From assembly GCA_964630285.1 (NCBI GenBank), contig CAZVRL010000002.1:1-50406 (forward strand): DNA of 50,406 nucleotides. The letters run 5' to 3'. Positions within the stretch are counted from its first letter, which is position 1, and each line of letters opens with the position of its first letter. The translations under genes and the position numbers were made by a program. Positions 1 to 47,825 of this stretch are shown here, piece by piece. The stretch comes from an uncultured Candidatus Peribacteria bacterium (GTDB lineage: Bacteria; Patescibacteriota; Gracilibacteria; BD1-5; JAGOOR01). Below the pieces are notes generated by a model. That model saw nothing but the letters and a program-made list of their open reading frames with translations. It was not told the DNA's origin and ran no database searches.

Positions 1-268
1 CGCCTCAAGCATGAGCCTCCTCTTGCGAGGGCCAACTCACTTGCACCGCCGAGGGTTTTCCACTTGCGTATGTTACCATGCACAATTGTGAGCTCTTACC
101 TCACTCTTTTCACCCTTACCTACCGAAGTAGGCGGTATAGTCTCTGTGGCACTTTCCCGTCCTGATTGCTCAGGAGGCAGCCGTTAGCTGTTCGGTTTTA
201 TGGGGATTACTCCCCTATAGTGTCCGGACTTTCCTCTGTAGATTGCTCTACAGCACATATCTCCTTGG
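1..268 (-). ncRNA. rnpB: RNase P RNA (bacterial type A), 5' portion; the 3' part runs off the window start
   Basis: The reverse complement carries the universal CR-I block GAGGAAAGTCCGG (224-236), preceded by a P3-like hairpin CTGTAGAGCAATCTACAG. It also carries GGGTGAAAAGAGTGAGGTAAGAGCTC (about 90-118), the conserved GGGTGAAA..GGTAAGAGC block. No plausible ORF. Confidence 0.8.
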
Positions 269-292
269 GTTTTTGTATTATGAGATGTTTTT

Positions 293-1819: not shown

Positions 1820-1896
1820 TGGAGCAGACAATGGGACTCGAACCCACAACCTCCGCCATGGCAAGGCGGCGCTCTAGCCAATTGAGCTATGTCTGC
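1820..1896 (-). tRNA. tRNA-Gly (anticodon GCC)
   Basis: Hand-folded cloverleaf. Acceptor GCAGACA/TGTCTGC, D arm GCTC-AATTGGCTA-GAGC, anticodon arm CCGCC-TTGCCAT-GGCGG, T arm GTGGG-TTCGAGT-CCCAT. Discriminator U, encoded CCA. Confidence 0.85.
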
Positions 1897-1910: not shown

Positions 1911-1989
1911 TGGAGCGGGGGGCCGGGTTCGAACCGGTACCTCCAAGGGTTGAAGCCTTAGTGCTCTCGCTCATTTAAGCTACCCCCGC
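1911..1989 (-). tRNA. tRNA with anticodon UCA (reads UGA) and glycine identity elements; tRNA-Gly(UCA) of translation table 25
   Basis: Hand-folded cloverleaf. Acceptor GCGGGGG/CCCCCGC, D arm GCTT-AAATGAGCGA-GAGC, anticodon arm TAAGG-CTTCAAC-CCTTG (positions 34-36 = TCA), T arm ACCGG-TTCGAAC-CCGGC. Has G1:C72, C2:G71, G3:C70 and discriminator U73, with encoded CCA. Confidence 0.8.
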
Positions 1990-11538: not shown

Positions 11539-12972
11539 TTATTTTGTTGTCAATTTTCTGGTCAATATTTCGGTAAATATTTTTGGATTACCTTGCCCTT
11601 TGCTTTCTTTCATACAGACGCCAACGAAAAACCCAAAAAGATTTACTTTCCCCGACTTATACTCCTCGACTTGTGAGGCATTGGCGGCAAGAACGGTGTC
11701 AACAATGACTTCCATAGCGCCAGAATCATTAACCTGACGGAGGCCTTTTTCATCGACGATTTTATCCGGATCTCAACCCTCATTCAAGAGAGTTTTTACA
11801 ACTTCCTGAGCGTTTGTAGAGGACAGTTCGTCATTTTTGAGCATATTCACCACACGAGCAAGGGCTTCTGGAGTGATTTTGAGGGTCGAGAAATCGATTT
11901 CTTCATCACCTTTTTTGAGAATTCACAAGATAACTGTGAGGATGAGTGAAGCGGATTTTTTTGGTTCATTCGTAAGAGAAACTGTTTTTTCAAAGAAATC
12001 AGACATAGCTCGCTCAGAACTGAGGATGCGAGCATCGTCTGGGAGGAGCTTCCATTCATTCAGATATTTCTGGCGACGATCCATCGGGAGTTCTGCGATT
12101 TTGCGCTCATCGATGTACTCTTGAGTGATGATAAGAGGTGGTAAATCAGGCTCTGGAAAATATCGGTAATCCATCGCGTCTTCTTTTGAACGAAGTGAAT
12201 GACTCTCCCCTGCATCATCATCCCAACCACGAGTTTCCTGGTCGACCGTACCATTTTCATCATAGATTTCGATTTGGCGCTTTACTTCAGTATCGATAGC
12301 GCGACCAATCTGCTGAAATGAGTTCAAATTCTTGAGTTCTACACGATTTCGGAGTTCATGACTCCCCTCTGGTCGAAGTGAGATATTTACATCACAACGA
12401 AGTTGCCCCTTTTCCATATCAGCATCACTCGCACCAGTAAATCGCATGATTTTTTGGAGTTCTTTGAGATAATCGAGGACGTCATCTTTGCCTCGGAAAT
12501 CAGGTTCTGTCACTATCTCCATGAGTGGACTTCCTGCACGATTAAAGTCTATGAGAGACTTCGTCACAGAGTGTTTGGATCCGCCTGCATCAGCCTCGAT
12601 ATGAATGCGTCGGATTTTGAAACGTTTCAATTCTTCTCCAACAAAAGCATCGAGATGGCCGTGCTCAGAAATCGGATGAAAGAGTTGCGTAATCTGATAT
12701 CCCATTGGGAGATCAGGATAGAAATAGCTCTTTCGATCGAACTGAGAAAAAGTATTCACCGTCATACGGAGACCGTGAGAAGCCCGAACTGCGAGGTCTA
12801 CCACACCCTCAGAGAGAATGGGGAGAGCCCCAGGAAGACCAAAAGAAACTGGTCAGATATTGATATTTGGATCACGTTCGAGAGCGACAGCATTTGGTTC
12901 GCCACCAAACATCTTGGTAATCGAACCAACACGGACATGGGTCTCAAGACCGATAACTATTTCGTATTTCAT
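11539..12972 (-). CDS. gatB: Asp-tRNA(Asn)/Glu-tRNA(Gln) amidotransferase subunit B
   Basis: Track ORF 11923..12804 extended through 3 TGA. N-terminus MKYEIVIGLETHVRV, then GLPGALP. The C-terminal GatB/YqeY-type domain (ITPEALARVVNML...KSGKVNLFGFFVGVCMKESKGQGNP) is recovered downstream of TGA 11923. Ends TAA 11539-11541. Confidence 0.9.
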
Positions 12973-13038
12973 ATGCGATGATTGTAGAGATTTTTCTAAT
13001 ATGACAAATAGAGTAATTTTCAGCTATCCTAAAAATAT

Positions 13039-13746
13039 CTAATAAGTTATTTTCTTAATACTTCAGACAGAAAGTACTAAATTTTCATGTTTTTTCGTAC
13101 CATCTGGAAACTCAATTATTATATTTTGATGATTTATCACTTCCACAACTTTACATATTTTAGTAACAACAGAGTTAGGTGACCCATCATATTGAGAAAA
13201 ATCATAATATTCAACTCTATCGCCAATTGAATAAACTTCATTCAACCATGGCATTTCTTGTTCTATTATCTCATTTAATATTTTTTGTCATTCTGATTCA
13301 GGATTTTTTGCTGTTTTATATCAAGTAGGATTTATAATTATACTTTCTATTTTTTTAATAGGAAGTTTTTTGCTGTTTAAAAAAGTTCTCTCTATTCAAT
13401 TGGGAAATTCGATTACAACAGTATTTCTGTCTATATATTTAATAATTCATTTTCAAAATAATGTATGTTCTATTGAATCTCATATTTTTACTGAAATACC
13501 AATAGGCTCTATCTGTGATTTATTAAAATCAAACTCATTTTCCCGGTATACATTATTTATTCACCTTCAGCTATCATCTGTTTTTTCCATTAAATAAAGA
13601 ATTCATTGAAAAACATTCCAAATAATCCCTAAAATAAAAAAAATCGCAAAAAATACACCAGGAAGTCAGGATTCATTACCTCTTGTTACTGCAAGCGTAA
13701 AAAATCATGAAATCAACAACAGAACTATGAATTGAGTTCATTTCAT
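13039..13746 (-). CDS. hypothetical membrane-anchored protein with two Tudor/SH3-like (DUF3553-like) repeats; extremely UGA-rich
   Basis: The frame of track ORF 13063..13254 stays free of TAA/TAG for 235 codons in about 28% GC sequence, but contains 13 TGA. N-terminal hydrophobic segments are followed by two copies of IGD(S/R)(I/V)E...(V/I)IEFP(N/D)G. An alternative ATG lies at 13768-13770. Ends TAG 13039-13041. Confidence 0.6.
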
Positions 13747-13793
13747 ATTCACCAAAGGCATGTGGACCATATGAAAATTATACAAATAATAAA

Positions 13794-15986
13794 CTAATTC
13801 TTCATTCCCTCAATCATCTGCGGAATAAAGTCTTCGAGACTGATTCAGAGAAGCGTCTCGCAACGTCTGCAGTGTTCACGGCTTACACCAGCTGCAAAGC
13901 CTTTGTCTTTGAGTTTTTTGAGTACTGAAGTAACCTTAACCTCGTCGAGGGATTTATTTGGTGTCATTCTAGAGCATGCCCAGATAAATCCTGAAAGCTC
14001 ATCAGCAGAGGCGAGGTATTTACGTAAATCCGTATCCAGCCCATGCTCTGGGAATTTTTCCTCATAGTGCGAACGAATATCCTCAAGCATTCACTTTGGA
14101 GCATTCATTTCTTCGAGAATTTGGGTAAGTGACTCACCACAATGACGCTCAGCATCTTTTTCGACAACATCCCAATCGACATCATGGAGCACACCGACAG
14201 CATACCAATAATCAGCATTTTTGCCGAGTTTCTGACCAAAATAACGCATACATCGACCCACTGTGAGATTATGATCTTTTGTCGTCGTAGAATATTTTGC
14301 AAGCGTGGCTTCTACTATTGGCAAATCAATATTGATATGAGAGTGTAGGTCATTTTCTTCAGATGATACAGCCTTTTTTCCTGGAGTCTTAACACTGACT
14401 GAAGGTTCAATTTTTGGATTCTTATCTTTCACGAGTGGAAACAAGACAACATCTCGGAGGTTTGGCTGTGCTGTGAGGAGCGCGACGATACGATCGATAC
14501 CCATACCAAAACCAGACTGAGGTGGCATGCCATGCTCCATGGCAGCGACGAAATCATCATCTGGCATAGCTATTTCATCATCTCCCGCCTTCTTTGCATC
14601 GAGTTGTTTTGAAAAACGTTCTTCTTGATCAACAGGGTCTACAAGCTCAGAGTAAGCATTGGTCACTTCCCAACCATTGATGCAGAGCTGAAATCGGTCT
14701 ACTATGCTCGGATTTGTGTCATTGAGACGGGCGAGTGGTGAGAGGACCAGGGGCTGATGGATAACGAAAGTCGGATTGATGATATGCGGTCGAGCTATTT
14801 TCTTATAGAGCTTATCGATAAGCGTTCCGTGCGAGAGTTTCATCATACCATCTATCTGAATACCAGCTTTTTGGATAGCTTTCTGGAGTTTTTCAAGCGT
14901 ATTTTCCTCGTAGATATTGATATCAGAATGTTCTTGAATTAAATCACAAATAGAGCGTCGTGGCCATTTCCCTGAAAAATCCACCGTATGCTTCTCCCCT
15001 TTTGAATTAATGATTTCGACTTTCTTGTTTCCGTCCATGAGTTCATCTATAATGTAACCAAACATGCGCTCCGTGAAATCCATATTATCCTCATAGTTCC
15101 AGTACACAGCATAGTGCTCAACGGAGGTAAACTCTGGAAGATGAGATGGGTCGAGGCCTTCATTGCGGAAAGACTTCCCTATTTCAAAGACTTTTTCCAT
15201 ACCACCAACTGTACACTTTTTGAGTGATGTTTCAGGTGCGATACGGAGGTACAGATCTGAATCAGTTGCCTCATGGTGTGTTGTAAATGGATGAGCGAGG
15301 GCCCCAGAAGCACTATTTCCAAGAGTAGGAGTCTCTACTTCGATAAATCCCTCGCGGTAATAAAATTCACGAAGTTTCTGGACAAATCGAGAACGGAATA
15401 CCATGCGATCATATGAAGTTTTCTCAGTAATCATGTCGAGATACCGTTTTCGGTAGATAGTTTCCTCATCAGCGAGTCCGTGAAATTTTTCTGGAAGTGG
15501 GAGAAATGCTTTTGAGAGAAGCTGAAACGAGCGAACAAAGACAGTCAATTCACCTTTATGCGTCATAAATAACTCACCATGAATACCGATAATATCTCCT
15601 CGGTCGATATATTTTTCAAAAATTTTAAATGGTTCCGCGGCTTCCTTTCCTATTTCACGCAATTCCCCACCATCTTGTGATAGAAGACAAAAATCCTTCG
15701 AAAGAGCAAACTGAATCTGCCCAGAAAAGTCCTGAAGTGTACCAAATATGAGCTTCCCGAAGCTACGAACGAGCATGATACGTCCAGCAGTATGTATTTC
15801 GTTTCCCGGCTCGGGAATAATCTCATCAATAGATCGAAATGTCTGTTTTTCTGATTTTTTGCGAATAACGCCTATATCCTGTTTTTTATGAAATCTATCA
15901 GGATACAGCTTGACTCCGAGGGCTCGAAGTGCATGGAGTTTTTGAAGACGAACTGAACGCTCGTCGTGTGGGTCTGGAGAAGTCAT
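13794..15986 (-). CDS. lysS: lysine--tRNA ligase (class II) fused to a C-terminal HD-superfamily hydrolase domain
   Basis: Track ORF 14091..15986 (631 aa, no stop of any kind) already runs from the LysRS core (OB fold, FRNEG, GxGIDR = GMGIDRIV, VLFPLVK) into the first half of an HD domain (VGVLHDVDW). The domain continues through TGA 14091 and 13845 (ELSGFIWACSRMTPNKSLDEVKVTSVLKKLKDKGFAAGVSRE). Ends TAG 13794-13796. Confidence 0.85.
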
Positions 15987-16088: not shown

Positions 16089-16598
16089 ATGCATACGTAT
16101 AAACCATGAAATGGCTTCACTGCAGAGCAGGCTGATGTACTGAATAGAACCGAGGCCTTCATTTCTCATAATAGCGATAGTGTAGATAGAATCATATTGG
16201 AATCCGTGCAGGCAGAATATCCTGATGATGGTATTCGTATTTTAGAAAGAAAACATTTTTGGGACGTAGAGTATATATTGGAGAGCGATCGTGATTGATA
16301 TAAATTCCATTCTCGTTTAGGCATTTCAACTTCAGAAAAAGGTCAAAAAAATGAAGCAAGGGTTTATCCAATTTGGGCATCTTATCCAGAATGCTTTGAT
16401 GCACCTAGACAAAGTTGGCATTGGCGCATGGATGAATTGGCTCAACACTTGTATCGATCAAAAGATATTAATCAGAATACAATCCCAAAACAAAAAATTG
16501 ATTCGTTATTATTAATTCAGTGAAGAGTTCGTTTGATACACGATGAAATGATCTCCCAAATTCAGGAAAAAGTTAGAGTACTAAAGGTTATTAATTAA
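16089..16598 (+). CDS. hypothetical protein
   Basis: A 169-codon frame open from ATG 16089 through 3 TGA (16107, 16296, 16521) to TAA 16596-16598. It is invisible in the standard-code track. No family recognised. Its 3' end overlaps the clpC stop by 8 nt. Confidence 0.45.
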
Positions 16599-31244: not shown

Positions 31245-32030
31245 ATGACATCAAGAATTCCCGACATACACGAGGTAAGCCGAGCGCTCTGATATGAACC
31301 AGAAGAGACGGGTTTTCGCGATTTAGGCGAATGATTTGCGTCTTATAGAACAGAAGAAGCAAAAGATTTACACAAGATAGATGTATGAGAAGAGTGGTCG
31401 ATTGCAACAGTGCGGGAATTAGTACAGTTCAGAATAGCAGCACTAGAGAAATCCCTTGAAGTAAACCAAATTGAACTAAGAGATTTATGAAGTGGTGAAA
31501 AATTAAAAGAAAGAGTACGAGAAAAATCTAGCTCCATAGTAAGTAAGCTGTGACCAGTGTGGACAAAGCGATTCAATACAAGAACTGCAACAGTAAAAAA
31601 ATGAGAAGAAGTTGTAGTGGTAGATGTAGACGAGAAAAAATTTAAAGACCCTTCTTCTCTTGATTATTCAAAACTTGTTGATGGGGGTGCTCAATTTAGA
31701 GATGTGGAAAAAATGGGTAATATATATAGTAGGATACCTTTATCAGTATATATGGCTGCCAAGTGAGGAAACCGCTCTATATTAGAACTCTACGCACATC
31801 CAGTAGTCATCGCACTTATACCAGATGAAGCAGAAAGAAATAAATACCTGTCAGCATTAGGAGTACTTGATTTACAAGACAATTTTGAACTCTGATCTCA
31901 ATCGATTTGGGTACCTGCATGATTCGCAAATAACTGAGGAAGATTTTATGCACTCGGTAGAAAAGCAGATTCATACTATCCGCCAAACAACTCAACAAAA
32001 TACATGGAGCTATTGCTCCATAAAAAGTAG
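31245..32030 (+). CDS. hypothetical protein, UGA-rich
   Basis: A 261-codon frame verified codon by codon from ATG 31245 (AAAAGGAG 31223-31230 upstream) through 10 TGA to TAG 32028-32030. It is invisible in the standard-code track. No family recognised. Confidence 0.55.
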
Positions 32031-32498
32031 TTAACGAACTTGACTTAATTCAACCGCGACAGCTCTCTGAGTGTCGCGTTTTTTTATCACTTCTCGTTTA
32101 TCATATTCTTTGCGACCTTTAGCTAGGGCCACAGATACTTTGACGAGATTTCATTTAAAATACACACGAGTAGCGATGAGCGCCATACCTTTCTCCCCTA
32201 CTTTTTGTTCTAGTCGGAGCATGACGTTCTTTCGAAGAAAGAGTTTTCTCGCACGTTTTACGCCTACATCAGCATCTTCTGCGAATTTATAAGGACTCAC
32301 GTGCATACCGAGAATCTGAGCAACGCCTCCGCGTATAGTTACATGACTTCCCTTCAGTTGAGCTCACATCTCACGCATACTTCTGACTTCCCAACCAAAA
32401 AGCTCAATTCCAGCCTCATGCTCCTCAATTATCTCATAATCAAAGAGTGCTTTTTTATTATTCGCGATTTCGGAGGATTTTTTAGTTTTATTTACCAT
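32031..32498 (-). CDS. smpB: SsrA-binding protein
   Basis: 155 aa through 2 TGA. Motifs [29 protein letters not shown] and [25 protein letters not shown]. Ends TAA 32031-32033, directly abutting the stop of the convergent gene. Confidence 0.85.
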
Positions 32499-33222
32499 TA
32501 TTGATTTCCTCCATTATAGCAGAATGAAGTGCAAAATCTATATGTTTTGTGGTAATTGTTGGCCAATGAGCACGGAAAAAATGAAGAGCTGTATTTGGTC
32601 ACATAAAGCCACCGCTTGTACGATGTCTCCCGTTAGAACCAGCACGAATCATAACATCTGGTTCTCGTAATCAGTTATGTGCCTTTTCAAACGCTTCCCT
32701 ACGAAGAGCAATTTGATTCCCTTCAAAACCGCCTCAAACAAGTAAATCCGCTTGCCTACTAGTCTCTCATTCCTGATCATATCAAAGGGCTAGTGCGCAA
32801 CGGAAAATAGAATTAAATCATTGAGTTTTTTCAGAAATATCTGCCATCAATTCACCAATATCCGGAGGCATCAACGAAGCATCCCCTATCATAAAAACAT
32901 GCGTCTGATTTTGATTTGCTATATCCAAAAGTCGAGGTTTGAATTGACGGAGAAGTTCGTAGAGACCTTTTAGTTCATCTTCTGGTCTTTTTTTGTTCTC
33001 ACGAGAGAGTCACCAAAATGTTACTTCATCAACAACATTAGAGCGTTTTTCTCTTAAATGAAGAAGTGTATCTTCAATTCTTGCAACTCATTCTTTGTGT
33101 CACTCAACAACATGATGCATTTTCACATTTCGGGAAAAACGCCTGTTGCCATCTGGAGTGATAGACATAGATAAAAGTTTTCCGCTATATTCATTGAGTG
33201 CACTTTGAACACCAGGGGACAT
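32488..33222 (-). CDS. uppS: isoprenyl transferase (undecaprenyl-diphosphate synthase family)
   Basis: Frame verified free of TAA/TAG, with 9 TGA. Motifs [29 protein letters not shown] and [15 protein letters not shown]. Overlaps the smpB start by 11 nt. Confidence 0.75.
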
Positions 33223-33287
33223 TCATTTAAGATATACTCATAAATCATCTTTTGCTCATGCAATGTGGTATTTTAGTTTCACAAAAA

Positions 33288-47435: not shown

Positions 47436-47825
47436 ATGAAAAAATATATCCCTCTTCTCATTATCACTTCCCTACTCCTCAGTGGTTGTAGTATTGGTTT
47501 TAATAATGAAGAAAATAACTCATTTAAAAAAAAGCAAGAATGTAATAATATGTTCGTTAAAATCGAAAACTATCTCAAAGATACCGGGTACACTTCTTGG
47601 AAATTAAATTCTATATTTTATAGCCCCAAAATGGATAGTTGTTTATATATTTCTGAGACAGAATCAACAATCAACACAAATTGAAAACACATTTTGATAT
47701 CAGATGCGTTTACAAAAGAACCCATAATAACAAGTCAATGTGAAGATCCAAAAAATAATCCATTTGAATGTATTTTAGATCTAGAAAAATTAGATACAAA
47801 AATCAAAGAACTCAAATGAGAATAA
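47436..47825 (+). CDS. hypothetical lipoprotein
   Basis: Lipobox MKKYIPLLIITSLLLSGC. Track ORF 47436..47684 continues through TGA 47682 and TGA 47817 to TAA 47823-47825. Confidence 0.5.

What the first reader, a model, noticed from the sequence alone, without database searches (positions are those of the whole stretch)
13039..13770. AT-rich orphan gene in which UGA is the majority glycine codon (13 in-frame TGA in 235 codons)
I checked this region codon by codon on the minus strand. The frame of track ORF 13063..13254 contains no TAA or TAG for 236 codons although the region is only about 28% GC. That is very unlikely for non-coding sequence. It does contain 13 TGA, with first bases on the plus strand at 13738, 13705, 13666, 13603, 13567, 13561, 13480, 13453, 13447, 13396, 13321, 13288 and 13063. 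Only 7 GGN codons are present, so about two thirds of the glycines are UGA. The product has N-terminal hydrophobic segments (FIVLLLIS-G*-FFTLAV; LPGVFFAIFFILGIIWNVF). These are followed by two copies of a module, I-G*-DSIEHTLF-G*-K-G*-IIKYIDRNTVVIEFPN-G*-IERTFL and IGDRVEYYDF...QNIIIEFPDGTKKHENL. The module resembles the small Tudor/SH3-like G-D-x-V-x-H-x-x-F-G-x-G...V-x-F domain found at the end of PcrA/UvrD helicases and in DUF3553 proteins. A membrane-anchored tandem of this fold is not an arrangement I recognise. Its codon content means it can only function inside a table-25 host, so it is lineage-locked.
Basis: partly seen in the sequence, partly recalled or inferred. Interest (0 to 1): 0.7.

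Follow-up and report, generated by a model that had tools for sequence, protein, structure and literature searches.

The report
Laterally spread AT-rich Gracilibacteria accessory gene
This is a real but narrowly distributed gene of a Gracilibacteria bacterium that reads UGA as glycine; its many UGA codons follow from its AT-rich composition, and its more unusual feature is that it is a small inserted cassette far less diverged between strains than the housekeeping genes on either side.

Summary
The minus-strand frame 13770..13039 has 243 sense codons, 13 in-frame TGA at the listed positions, 7 GGN, and no TAA/TAG until the TAG stop.

The window is Candidatus Gracilibacteria (code 25). It carries a tRNA(UCA) with glycine identity elements, and TGA sits at Walker-A glycines in ClpB and a ComM-like ATPase.

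The ORF is a real gene. There are five alleles in 25 contigs, with no indel or stop. pN/pS is 0.21 in this frame only.

A UGA majority among glycine codons is not special. gatB of AT-rich Gracilibacteria uses TGA for 69-85% of glycines, so 65% at 27% GC is expected. The "lineage-locked" property applies to most genes in this window.

The protein has an N-terminal two-helix hydrophobic hairpin and two related modules. The C-terminal module models as a small SH3/Tudor-like barrel, but only weakly. No test supports membership of the PcrA/UvrD or DUF3553 families.

New result: the gene is a roughly 0.78 kb cassette between lysS and gatB. It is absent from the empty site of a sibling lineage (L016). 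Its synonymous divergence is 5-20 times lower than that of its flanks. This points to recent lateral spread by recombination.

The function is unknown. My inference is a membrane-tethered binding protein with an accessory or conflict role. Interest is modest.

The parts
13039..13770 (-). Coding sequence of the accessory gene: 243 codons plus a TAG stop, with 13 TGA read as Gly and 7 GGN, at 27% GC.
   Evidence: Searches give the translation and codon counts. One search shows frame-specific pN/pS of 0.21, with 31 of 49 differences at codon position 3. One search shows five alleles, no indel and no TAA/TAG.
13684..13737 (-). Hydrophobic helix 1 (aa 12-29, TQFIVLLLISGFFTLAVT).
   Evidence: A Kyte-Doolittle 19-residue window exceeds 1.6 at aa 19-23. 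The AlphaFold2 model of P0001 has a helix at 9-31 with pLDDT about 75.
13588..13665 (-). Hydrophobic helix 2 (aa 36-61, LPGVFFAIFFILGIIWNVFQGILYLM). With helix 1 it forms a helical hairpin with a 6-residue loop.
   Evidence: The Kyte-Doolittle score exceeds 1.6 at aa 41-52. The AlphaFold2 model has a helix at 36-77 with pLDDT 72-83.
13348..13491 (-). Module 1 (aa 94-141, VKIGDSIEHTLFGKGIIKYIDRNTVVIEFPNGIERTF...). Four of its glycines are TGA codons.
   Evidence: It aligns with module 2 at BLASTP E = 1e-4. Two of its TGA codons (IGD, FPNG) align with GGC and GGT glycine codons in module 2. There is a weak Pfam hit to Tudor_1_RapA at E 0.24.
13237..13347 (-). Linker between the modules (aa 142-178), polar and partly helical in the models.
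   Evidence: low confidence; one search gives the coordinates.
13048..13236 (-). Module 2 (aa 179-241, VYSIGDRVEYYDF...NIIIEFPDGTKKHENL...). It is modelled as a four-stranded small beta-barrel.
   Evidence: AlphaFold2 on aa 164-237 gives mean pLDDT 68.8, about 80 in the core, with strands at 24-29, 41-51, 55-59 and 65-69 of the model. Foldseek top hits are PWWP, Tudor, Agenet and SH3-like barrels at TM 0.45-0.55 and E 0.03-0.5.
13771..13793 (-). 23-nt leader between the lysS stop codon and the gene's ATG (TTTATTATTTGTATAATTTTCAT). It contains a TATAAT-like hexamer 6 nt before the ATG and no Shine-Dalgarno sequence. It forms the left edge of the inserted block.
   Evidence: Direct reading. It is conserved in all carriers and absent from L016.
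13010..13793 (-). The inserted block as a whole, about 0.77-0.79 kb. It is present in the window, L001-L014 and L095-L105 and is missing from the empty lysS|gatB junction of L016. The right edge is approximate (13010-13022).
   Evidence: No target-site duplication or terminal inverted repeat was found.
12973..13009 (-). Spacer directly upstream of gatB that is shared with genomes lacking the gene. It has promoter-like hexamers TTGTCA ... TACAAT (TTGCTG ... TATAAT in L016).
   Evidence: Direct comparison of the window, L015 and L016. The consensus scan gave only chance-level promoter counts, so promoter function is inferred.
13794..15986 (-). Upstream flank: lysS (class II Lys-tRNA synthetase, 730 aa).
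   Evidence: Pfam tRNA-synt_2 at 3e-74 and tRNA_anti-codon. dS against L011 is 1.13.
11539..12972 (-). Downstream flank: gatB (477 aa).
   Evidence: Pfam GatB_N at 4e-102 and GatB_Yqey at 8e-43. dS against L011 is 1.20.
1911..1989 (-). tRNA with anticodon UCA, the decoder of the gene's 13 TGA codons. It lies beside tRNA-Gly(GCC) at 1820-1896.
   Evidence: ARAGORN (labelled SeC because of the anticodon) and Rfam tRNA at 45 bits. The sequence shows acceptor G1-C72, C2-G71, G3-C70 and U73, which is the bacterial glycine identity set according to established knowledge.

Best explanation
The region is a genuine accessory (ORFan) gene of a Candidatus Gracilibacteria lineage that translates UGA as glycine.

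Shown:
- The 243-codon frame is under frame-specific purifying selection and is intact in five alleles.
- Its TGA codons are decoded by a tRNA-Gly(UCA) encoded in the same window.
- The gene sits in a block of about 0.78 kb at 27% GC, wedged between lysS and gatB. A sibling lineage has the same junction empty.
- Synonymous divergence of the block between carriers is 5-20 times lower than that of the flanking genes.

Inferred:
- The block arrived, or was last exchanged, long after the carrier lineages split. It probably moved by homologous recombination through the conserved 3' end of lysS and the conserved 5' end of gatB.
- Its source was probably an AT-rich donor that also uses code 25. This would explain both the composition and the 65% share of TGA among glycine codons, which is the share seen in gatB of AT-rich Gracilibacteria.

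Product (partly shown, partly inferred): a small membrane protein. Two N-terminal hydrophobic helices form a hairpin that anchors two tandem small SH3/Tudor-like beta-barrel modules. By charge distribution these most likely face the cytoplasm.

Mechanism (inferred, low confidence): it acts as a membrane-tethered binding module that holds a protein or nucleic-acid ligand at the membrane. Its patchy distribution and spread suggest a strain-level accessory role, such as phage exclusion or symbiont-host interaction, rather than a housekeeping role.
For: Genetic code:
- tRNA(UCA) with G1-C72, C2-G71, G3-C70 and U73.
- TGA falls at the Walker-A glycine of ClpB (FLFLxPTGVGKT), at both glycines of xPPxSGKT in a ComM/YifB-like ATPase, and in MCxIV of GlmS.
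- The nearest gatB relatives are all titled Gracilibacteria.

Real gene:
- pN/pS is 0.21 in the annotated frame against 0.83-2.7 in four other frames. The remaining frame, antisense with shared third positions, gives 0.27, as expected for that frame.
- 31 of 49 differences fall at codon position 3.
- The antisense ORF carries a stop in the other alleles.
- Five alleles across 25 contigs have no indel and no stop, and 12-13 TGA codons are kept.
- TGA codons in module 1 align with GGC and GGT codons in module 2.

Composition explains the TGA share:
- Across 24 Gracilibacteria gatB orthologues, gene GC against TGA share gives rho -0.84, p 3e-7.
- Genes with GC below 0.30 have a TGA share of 69-85%.

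Insertion:
- L016 has the lysS stop followed by 36 nt and then gatB.
- The window, the L001 clade, L015 and L016 are roughly equidistant in gatB, at p 0.16-0.19.
- No homologue was found in six-frame code-25 ORFs of 80 gatB-anchored loci.

Low divergence:
- Window against L011: dS is 0.20 for the gene, against 1.07-1.98 for seven neighbouring genes.
- Among closer strains: pS is 0.02-0.06 for the gene, against 0.26-0.46 for the flanks.
- The orphan, lysS 3' and gatB 5' trees disagree with one another.

Protein:
- Hydropathy analysis and AlphaFold2 helices at 9-31 and 36-77.
- The module-2 model and its Foldseek neighbours.
- Weak Pfam hints to Tudor_1_RapA and SH3_15.
Against: - No donor was found. 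The gene has no relative in 5.8 billion clustered proteins, 1.84 billion representatives, IMG/VR, JGI metagenome contigs or GenBank phages.
- No mobility gene, target-site duplication or inverted repeat marks the block.
- The orphan's divergence ranks the window allele as the outlier, as the flanks do. A vertical history with an unexplained low synonymous rate, plus loss in L016, is therefore not excluded.
- The fold assignment rests on a single-sequence model of one module (pLDDT 68.8), and no Foldseek hit reaches E 1e-3.
- Topology rests on a weak positive-inside count.
- There is no expression, peptide or functional evidence, and no PADLOC or PHROG hit.
Confidence: 0.7

Rival explanations
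1. The gene is vertically inherited. The cassette was present in the common ancestor of the window, L001-clade, L015 and L016 lineages and was lost from L016 (and replaced in L015). Its low synonymous divergence reflects constraint on the nucleotide sequence itself or a locally low mutation rate, not recent transfer.
For: The window allele is the outlier both for the gene and for the flanks. All carriers hold the gene at the same junction. No mobility signature is present.
Against: - Synonymous divergence is 5-20 times lower than in seven neighbouring genes, even for strain pairs far from saturation.
- A simple mutation-selection calculation gives roughly equal synonymous rates for GC3 0.18 and 0.37 (my own inference, not a tool result).
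- A gene resident over dS greater than 1 should have drifted towards the host GC3 of 0.30-0.43, but it sits at 0.14-0.18.
- Within the L001 clade the gene tree conflicts with the lysS 3' tree. L001-L013 are closest for the gene (9 differences) and most distant for lysS (40 of 300).
Confidence: 0.2
2. One reading: a membrane-anchored tandem of the PcrA/UvrD C-terminal Tudor or DUF3553 domain. This would imply RNA-polymerase or nucleic-acid binding homologous to those families.
For: Module 1 reads I-G-D-S-I-E-H-T-L-F-G-K-G ... V-V-I-E-F, which matches the recalled G-D-x-V-x-H-x-x-F-G-x-G ... V-x-F pattern (direct reading). The weak Pfam hit Tudor_1_RapA (E 0.24) is to another bacterial RNAP-associated Tudor-like domain. 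The Foldseek neighbours are Tudor or SH3-like barrels.
Against: - No Pfam hit to PcrA_UvrD_tudor or DUF3553 at E up to 10, and none in NCBIfam.
- No PcrA or UvrD chain appears in PDB sequence or profile searches at E up to 10, nor among the top 50 Foldseek PDB hits.
- Module 2 lacks the H-x-x-F-G-x-G part of the motif.
- The protein is not attached to a helicase.
Confidence: 0.12
3. The frame is a fortuitously open stretch of AT-rich non-coding spacer, or it hosts a non-coding RNA or an antisense gene instead.
For: No homologue outside one cluster, no family hit, and very low GC. A 121-codon stop-free antisense ORF lies at 13235-13597.
Against: - Shuffles never reach the observed open length.
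- Purifying selection is frame-specific, with an excess of third-position changes.
- There are no indels across 732 nt in five alleles.
- TGA is enriched about threefold over the compositional expectation, and TGA codons align with GGN codons of the paralogous module (the expectation is my own calculation).
- The antisense ORF is interrupted in the other alleles.
- No Rfam match beyond a chance-level hit at E 0.14.
Confidence: 0.03
4. The two barrels face outward and act as SH3b-like envelope or host-surface binding modules. They would then serve as a surface adhesin or a superinfection-exclusion factor, rather than as cytoplasmic binders.
For: Membrane-anchored tandem small domains on the outer face are the architecture of known exclusion proteins (from my own knowledge, e.g. 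Ltp-type; not tested here). Gracilibacteria are thought to live attached to other cells (PMC8080830 and PMC6851277 abstracts). The gene shows strain-level presence/absence.
Against: A two-helix hairpin places the N- and C-termini on the same side of the membrane. The K+R count favours N-in/C-in, with 3 on the termini side and 1 in the loop. There is no cleavable signal peptide or lipobox, and no match to SH3b families in Pfam.
Confidence: 0.2

Closest known systems
TGA-dense genes of code-25 bacteria (Gracilibacteria / Absconditabacteria) and their prophages
   Same: In-frame TGA is read as glycine by tRNA-Gly(UCA). The TGA share of glycine codons rises as GC falls: 69-85% in gatB of AT-rich Gracilibacteria against 65% here. 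[quoted passage not shown] UGA=Gly has been validated by proteomics (Hanke et al. 2014, as cited in PMC6851277).
   Different: This gene is an outlier within its own genome, which has about 41% GC. Most host genes of 200 aa or more use TGA for 0-31% of their glycines, and two reach 46-50%. No prophage genes accompany it.
Small SH3-like / Tudor-like beta-barrel domains (PWWP, Tudor, Agenet, integrase C-terminal domain, ribosomal L2/L14e KOW-type barrels, B. subtilis YorP)
   Same: The module-2 model is a four-stranded small barrel whose best structural neighbours all belong to this class. The hydrophobic strand-F-P-[DN]-G-turn-strand hairpin recurs in such domains. The weak Pfam hits are to Tudor_1_RapA and SH3_15.
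   Different: No hit is statistically significant (Foldseek E at least 0.03, HMMER E at least 0.1). No aromatic-cage or other functional site can be assigned. The combination with an N-terminal two-helix membrane hairpin has no counterpart among the hits.
PcrA/UvrD C-terminal Tudor domain and DUF3553
   Same: Module 1 carries a G-D-x-[VI]-x-H-x-x-F-G-x-G ... V-x-F-like string (direct reading).
   Different: No sequence, profile or structural search retrieved these families. Module 2 lacks the motif. The protein has no helicase context and is membrane-anchored.
P0010, an unannotated 477-aa repeat protein (seven copies of HIGExxKAxNGQTMTIVEYINxNxIIVEFDDGT..., C-terminal Cys-rich tail)
   Same: It is the only plausible non-self hit in 1.84 billion representatives (E 6.7e-4 over five stretches). 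hhalign of the two module sets gives 91% probability.
   Different: The match covers only about 20 columns, a single beta-hairpin. P0010 has no membrane anchor and uses the standard reading of glycine. Its own family assignments are only summed weak repeat hits (BAHCC1 Tudor, DUF2442). Homology is therefore possible but not established.
Strain-specific genes in variable slots (integration hotspots) exchanged by homologous recombination through conserved flanks
   Same: The gene is present or absent at one junction between conserved core genes. A different gene occupies the same junction in L015. The neighbouring clpB|lysS junction is also variable. The gene is less diverged than its flanks.
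   Different: The cargo is a single gene with no mobility functions. The donor is unknown and must itself use code 25.

Membership tests
Genetic code 25 organism (Gracilibacteria/Absconditabacteria) | In-frame TGA at positions that are invariant glycine in universally conserved motifs | tested here: met
   ClpB FLFL-TGA-PTGVGKT, ComM-like TGA-PP-TGA-SGKT, GlmS MC-TGA-IV and FtsW SG-TGA-FFGLGF-TGA. The motif identities come from established knowledge.
Genetic code 25 organism (Gracilibacteria/Absconditabacteria) | tRNA with anticodon UCA carrying glycine identity elements (G1-C72, C2-G71, G3-C70, U73) | tested here: met
   tRNA at 1911-1989(-), read directly. It lies next to tRNA-Gly(GCC).
Genetic code 25 organism (Gracilibacteria/Absconditabacteria) | Absence of release factor 2 | not testable with these tools
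   Only 50 kb of the genome is in hand.
Genetic code 25 organism (Gracilibacteria/Absconditabacteria) | Phylogenetic placement within the recoded clade | tested here: met
   The closest gatB loci (50-93% amino-acid identity) are nearly all titled Candidatus Gracilibacteria. Three are titled Peribacteria and several carry only generic Patescibacteria or bacterium titles, but these use TGA in frame as well.
Functional protein-coding gene | Frame-specific purifying selection and preservation of the frame among relatives | tested here: met
   pN/pS is 0.21 in frame against 0.83-2.7 in four other frames, and 0.27 in the antisense frame that shares third positions. dN/dS is 0.18-0.20 against the window allele. 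Five alleles have no indel or stop.
Functional protein-coding gene | Evidence of transcription or translation | not testable with these tools
   No transcriptome or proteome data are available.
PcrA/UvrD C-terminal Tudor (Pfam PcrA_UvrD_tudor) / DUF3553 | Significant match to the family profile | tested here: not met
   No such hit in Pfam at E up to 10 for the whole protein or for the isolated modules. No PcrA or UvrD chain in PDB searches.
PcrA/UvrD C-terminal Tudor (Pfam PcrA_UvrD_tudor) / DUF3553 | G-D-x-V-x-H-x-x-F-G-x-G motif followed by a V-x-F strand | tested here: inconclusive
   Module 1 has IGDSIEHTLFGKG...VVIEF. Module 2 has only IGDRVEYYDF...IIIEF. The motif definition is recalled from memory, not taken from a profile.
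PcrA/UvrD C-terminal Tudor (Pfam PcrA_UvrD_tudor) / DUF3553 | Location at the C-terminus of an SF1 helicase (PcrA/UvrD) or as a stand-alone soluble protein of about 60 aa (DUF3553) | tested here: not met
   The modules are tandem and follow a two-helix membrane hairpin.
SH3-like / Tudor-like small beta-barrel fold class | Five-stranded, strongly bent antiparallel barrel of about 50-60 residues | tested here: inconclusive
   The single-sequence AlphaFold2 model of module 2 has four strands and core pLDDT about 80. The top Foldseek PDB hits are PWWP, Tudor, Agenet, integrase-CTD, L2 and chromo-barrel domains at TM 0.45-0.55, but with E 0.03-0.5. Module 1 was not modelled with glycines.
Tcp10_C / CPAP G-box repeat | Score above the Pfam gathering threshold (36 bits) over repeated units | tested here: not met
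   20.7 bits over 10 residues (EFPDGTKKHE) only.
Mobile element (IS/transposon/prophage remnant) | Transposase or integrase gene, terminal inverted repeats, target-site duplication | tested here: not met
   The block holds one ORF only. No bracketing repeats were found. There is no PHROG hit and no match in IMG/VR or GenBank phages.
Known anti-phage defence systems (PADLOC) | Match to a defence-protein model | tested here: not met
   No PADLOC hit at E up to 1.
Laterally exchanged accessory gene in a variable slot | Presence/absence at an otherwise conserved junction in sibling lineages | tested here: met
   L016 has an empty lysS|gatB junction. L015 has a different ORF at that position.
Laterally exchanged accessory gene in a variable slot | Divergence and/or tree discordant with flanking core genes | tested here: met
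   dS is 0.20 against 1.07-1.98. pS is 0.02-0.06 against 0.26-0.46. The nearest-neighbour relations are discordant.
Laterally exchanged accessory gene in a variable slot | Identified donor or the same gene in another genomic context | tested here: not met
   All 25 carrier contigs share the same context. The one exception is a low-coverage contig end in L010. No other relatives were found anywhere.

The most novel reading that the evidence does not exclude
The cassette would be a code-25-restricted accessory gene that has swept laterally through related Gracilibacteria populations because it confers a conflict-related advantage, for example phage exclusion or abortive infection, or modulation of attachment to the host cell. 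It would act through a previously undescribed architecture, a membrane-tethered tandem Tudor/SH3-like binder. This would give a first example of a gene-specific sweep by recombination in recoded CPR bacteria. It would also define a new protein family confined behind the UGA=Gly 'firewall'.
Probability: 0.15. Interest if true: 0.55.

Novelty: new member of a known kind. Interest (0 to 1): 0.3.

Why it matters
The headline feature, UGA as the majority glycine codon, does not need a special explanation. It is what AT-rich genes look like in code-25 bacteria, and that is worth knowing so similar flags can be discounted.

Three things remain of interest:

1. The locus is a clean, well-delimited example of gene-level presence/absence in an uncultured recoded lineage, with synonymous divergence far lower than in the surrounding core genes. 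It could be used to study recombination and gene flow among Gracilibacteria, where any donor must share the altered code.

2. The gene defines an uncharacterised membrane-anchored tandem small-barrel protein family with no detectable relatives.

3. It has a practical annotation lesson. Public gene calls for this gene are either code-4 mistranslations (Trp at 13 glycine sites) or 63-aa fragments. Such genes are therefore effectively invisible to homology searches.

Tried and rejected
**Searches that found no family or relative**
- Pfam, NCBIfam, PHROGs and PADLOC scans of the code-25 translation gave no family. Only sub-threshold Tcp10_C, Tudor_1_RapA and SH3_15 hits appeared.
- PDB sequence and profile searches found nothing significant.
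- The word-indexed search of 5.8 billion proteins returned only the gene's own 90% cluster.
- The full HMMER scan of 1.84 billion representatives, run with the Trp-translated P0001, returned two other hits. P0009 has DUF7507 repeats; I judged it an artefact of summing 11 identical repeats. P0010 shares a hairpin motif only.
- Six-frame code-25 ORFs of 80 gatB-anchored loci gave no relative.
- IMG/VR, JGI metagenome contigs and GenBank phages gave nothing, by protein or by degenerate DNA pattern.
- Rfam gave nothing in the region.

**Structure and motif attempts**
The full-length model had to use the Trp version and is uninformative beyond the N-terminal helices.
- A regex hunt for PcrA-type Tudor motifs in the fetched loci, meant to build a comparison profile, found none.

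**Other checks**
- The GatB TGA positions fall in variable columns and did not help to prove the code. Walker-A motifs did.
- The apparent 'different downstream gene' in L005, L009 and L010 was a gene-caller artefact antisense to gatB.
- Within the window, GC3 does not significantly predict TGA share (rho -0.18). The relation holds across genomes, not across genes of this genome.
- Promoter-like and terminator-like sites are at chance level.
- No bracketing repeats were found.
Full report
**Observation**

On the minus strand, 13770..13039 translates to 243 sense codons ending in TAG. The stop-to-stop frame under a two-stop code runs 298 codons (13039..13935). GC is 27% against about 41% for the window. 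GC1, GC2 and GC3 are 0.35, 0.28 and 0.18. In 5000 shuffles of 13001-13800, the longest TAA/TAG-free run averaged 72 codons and never exceeded 179, against 253 observed.

**Genetic code and organism**

- ARAGORN and Rfam find a tRNA with anticodon UCA at 1911-1989(-), next to tRNA-Gly(GCC).
- Its sequence shows G1-C72, C2-G71, G3-C70 and discriminator U73. By established knowledge, this is the bacterial glycine identity set.
- Marking TGA as X in conserved proteins of the window puts it at the Walker-A glycine of ClpB (FLFLxPTGVGKT). It also falls at both glycines of xPPxSGKT in a ComM/YifB-like ATPase, in MCxIV of GlmS, and in SGxFFGLGFx of FtsW.
- The closest gatB loci in GTDB species representatives are nearly all titled Candidatus Gracilibacteria.
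- UGA=Gly in this group has been validated by proteomics (Hanke et al. 2014, cited in PMC6851277).
- 27 of the 31 ORFs of 200 aa or more in the window carry at least one TGA. Dependence on a code-25 host is thus a property of the genome, not of this gene.

**Is it a gene?**

The word-indexed protein search found one 90%-identity cluster. Its members are either 243-aa code-4 translations, with Trp at the TGA sites, or 63-aa table-11 fragments. One member is the window's own contig.

Fetching the contigs gave 25 loci with five distinct DNA alleles. All are 732 nt, with no indel and no TAA/TAG, and 12-13 TGA codons are retained. One TGA has become TCA in two alleles.

Between the window allele and the L001 allele, 31 of 49 differences fall at codon position 3. 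pN/pS is 0.21 in the annotated frame and 0.83-2.7 in four other frames. The antisense frame that shares third positions gives 0.27, as expected. The 121-codon stop-free antisense ORF (13235-13597) is interrupted in the other alleles. No Rfam family matches the region.

Within the protein, the TGA codons of module 1 in I-G-D and F-P-N-G align with GGC and GGT glycine codons in module 2. This is internal evidence that TGA means glycine here. The 'fortuitously open spacer' alternative is rejected.

**Is a UGA majority among glycine codons unusual?**

Within this genome, yes. Bona fide genes of 200 aa or more mostly use TGA for 0-31% of their glycines, and two genes reach 46-50%. Across Gracilibacteria, no:

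- The TGA share in gatB rises as GC falls (rho -0.84, p 3e-7, n=24).
- The four orthologues with gene GC below 0.30 use TGA for 69-85% of glycines.
- One genome at 36% GC uses 71%.

The orphan, at 27% GC and 65% TGA, has the codon usage of an AT-rich code-25 genome. [quoted passage not shown]

**Genomic anatomy**

The gene lies between lysS (13794-15986) and gatB (11539-12972), all on the minus strand. A 23-nt leader precedes the ATG and contains a TATAAT-like hexamer but no Shine-Dalgarno sequence. A 66-nt spacer separates the gene from gatB.

In L016, gatB is 93% identical at the protein level. Its gatB DNA is as distant from the window as the L001 clade is, about 0.16. There, the lysS stop is followed by 36 nt and then gatB, with nothing in between.

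L015 (92% GatB identity) shares only the last roughly 49 nt before gatB, and a different minus-strand ORF sits upstream. The gene is therefore part of a block of about 0.77-0.79 kb (about 13010-13793) that is present or absent at a variable junction.

No target-site duplication, terminal inverted repeat, terminator or mobility gene accompanies the block. The neighbouring clpB|lysS junction is variable as well. It holds a 169-aa ORF in the window, a non-homologous ORF in L011, and nothing in L095 or L016.

**Divergence anomaly**

Sliding-window identity between the window and L011 or L001 is 0.80-0.87 in the flanks. It rises to 0.91-0.96 exactly over the block. Nei-Gojobori estimates under code 25 for the window against L011:

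| Gene | dS |
|---|---|
| orphan | 0.20 |
| clpB | 1.07 |
| lysS | 1.13 |
| gatB | 1.20 |
| hyp113 | 1.53 |
| S8 protease | 1.77 |
| ftsW | 1.78 |
| M23 peptidase | 1.98 |

dN is similar for the orphan (0.040) and the flanks (0.024-0.090). The orphan's omega of 0.20 is thus higher than the 0.02-0.05 of the housekeeping genes.

For strain pairs far from saturation, pS is 0.02-0.06 in the orphan. It is 0.26-0.46 in gatB and 0.31-0.36 in lysS. Nearest-neighbour relations also differ between the orphan, the lysS 3' end and the gatB 5' end.

By my own calculation, a mutation-selection argument predicts nearly equal synonymous rates at GC3 0.18 and 0.37. Composition alone therefore does not explain the gap. 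The best reading is that the block coalesces much more recently than its flanks. That means it was acquired, or exchanged between lineages, by recombination through two conserved flanks. One is the last roughly 40 nt of lysS. The other is the promoter region with the first roughly 70 nt of gatB. The unameliorated AT-richness fits this reading. A vertical history with loss in L016 and an unexplained low synonymous rate is not excluded. I give it about 0.2.

**The protein**

Hydropathy gives two segments above 1.6, at aa 19-23 and 41-52. The AlphaFold2 model of the Trp-translated relative P0001 is confident only for helices 9-31 and 36-77 (pLDDT 72-83). A two-helix hairpin places both termini on the same side of the membrane. 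K+R counts are 3 on the termini side and 1 in the loop, which weakly favours a cytoplasmic C-terminal part.

The two modules (aa 94-141 and 179-241) align at E 1e-4. The TGA-free stretch aa 164-237 was modelled alone. Mean pLDDT is 68.8, about 80 in the core, with four strands.

- Foldseek against the PDB found nothing at E of 1e-3 or below. Its top hits are almost all small SH3-like barrels: PWWP, Tudor, Agenet, retroviral integrase C-terminal domain, ribosomal L2, chromo-barrel and YorP. They score TM 0.45-0.55 at E 0.03-0.5.
- The viral structure library returned small uncharacterised phage barrels, none significant.
- The weak Pfam hits are Tudor_1_RapA (E 0.24), SH3_15 (E 0.1) and Tcp10_C (20.7 bits against a cut-off of 36).
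- The PDB profile search gave only eL14, not significant.
- Nothing retrieved PcrA/UvrD Tudor or DUF3553.

The fold-class guess is therefore plausible, and family membership is unsupported.

The full HMMER scan of 1.84 billion representatives added two hits. P0009 is a DUF7507 repeat protein whose score I judge to be inflated by 11 identical repeats. P0010 has seven repeats sharing a roughly 20-residue hairpin with the modules (hhalign 91%).

**Function**

No test gives a function. There are no PADLOC or PHROG hits, no paralogue in the window, and no informative neighbours.

I commit to the following at low confidence (about 0.2 for the functional part). The protein is a membrane-tethered binder whose two barrels hold a protein or nucleic-acid partner at the cytoplasmic face. 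It would serve a strain-level accessory role such as phage exclusion or host interaction. The grounds are its patchy distribution, its recent spread and its moderate purifying selection. An outward-facing envelope-binding role is the main alternative.

**Verdict**

The UGA-majority feature is ordinary for AT-rich code-25 DNA. The family is new but of a known general kind, an ORFan membrane protein with small beta-barrels. The most unusual result is that the block is a low-divergence island at an indel-polymorphic junction, which points to recent lateral exchange among recoded bacteria.

Noticed in passing
window 1911-1989 (-) and 1820-1896 (-): A tRNA with anticodon UCA lies directly beside tRNA-Gly(GCC). 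ARAGORN labels it tRNA-SeC. Its acceptor stem is GCG.../...CGC and its discriminator is U73, which are glycine identity elements, so it is the UGA=Gly decoder.
   Followed up: yes
window 16089-16598 (+); L011 7187-7684 (-); L095 and L016 clpB|lysS junction: This is a second variable slot one gene away. The window has a 169-aa ORF with no family hit and GC3 0.27 between clpB and lysS. L011 has a non-homologous 165-aa ORF there (24% identity). L095 and L016 have nothing.
   Followed up: partly
L015 3-941 (-) and 941-985: In a sibling lineage, a different 313-aa minus-strand ORF sits directly upstream of the shared gatB promoter-like spacer. The junction upstream of gatB therefore appears to be a recurrent insertion slot.
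   Followed up: partly
window 47436-47825 (+); L017 2478-2951 (-): Another AT-rich (27% GC) small ORF has a lipoprotein-type start (MKKYIPLLIITSLLLSGC). A similar ORF (MKKLLPLLLATSLLLSAC...KFLKGE) lies in the more distant locus L017.
   Followed up: no
window 13794-15986 (-): The Lys-tRNA synthetase is 730 aa. The Pfam catalytic domain ends near aa 518. A C-terminal extension of about 210 aa has no Pfam hit and is conserved in L011, L012 and L016.
   Followed up: no
window 31245-32030 (+) and 32488-33282 (-): These two genes have the next-highest TGA shares of glycine codons (10/20 and 12/26) and the lowest GC3 among long genes (0.27 and 0.23). They were not characterised.
   Followed up: no
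proteins P0001-P0008 (public gene calls for this gene): Public collections hold this gene only as code-4 translations, with Trp at 13 glycine sites, or as 63-aa table-11 fragments. This hampers homology and structure searches for recoded lineages.
   Followed up: yes
L010 1-57: One low-coverage contig (coverage 1.5) has a different 35 nt upstream of the shared leader TTATTATTTGTATAAATTTTCAT. It is probably a chimeric contig end, but it could be a second genomic context.
   Followed up: no
whole window: With only TAA/TAG as stops, the window has 223 ORFs of 100 codons or more, covering 136 kb of reading frame in 50 kb of DNA. Many are long antisense overlaps. Naive ORF lists and some public gene calls (e.g. 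antisense to gatB in L005, L009 and L010) pick wrong-strand ORFs.
   Followed up: partly
window 1-272 (-): Bacterial RNase P RNA class A (116 bits), cut off by the window end.
   Followed up: no
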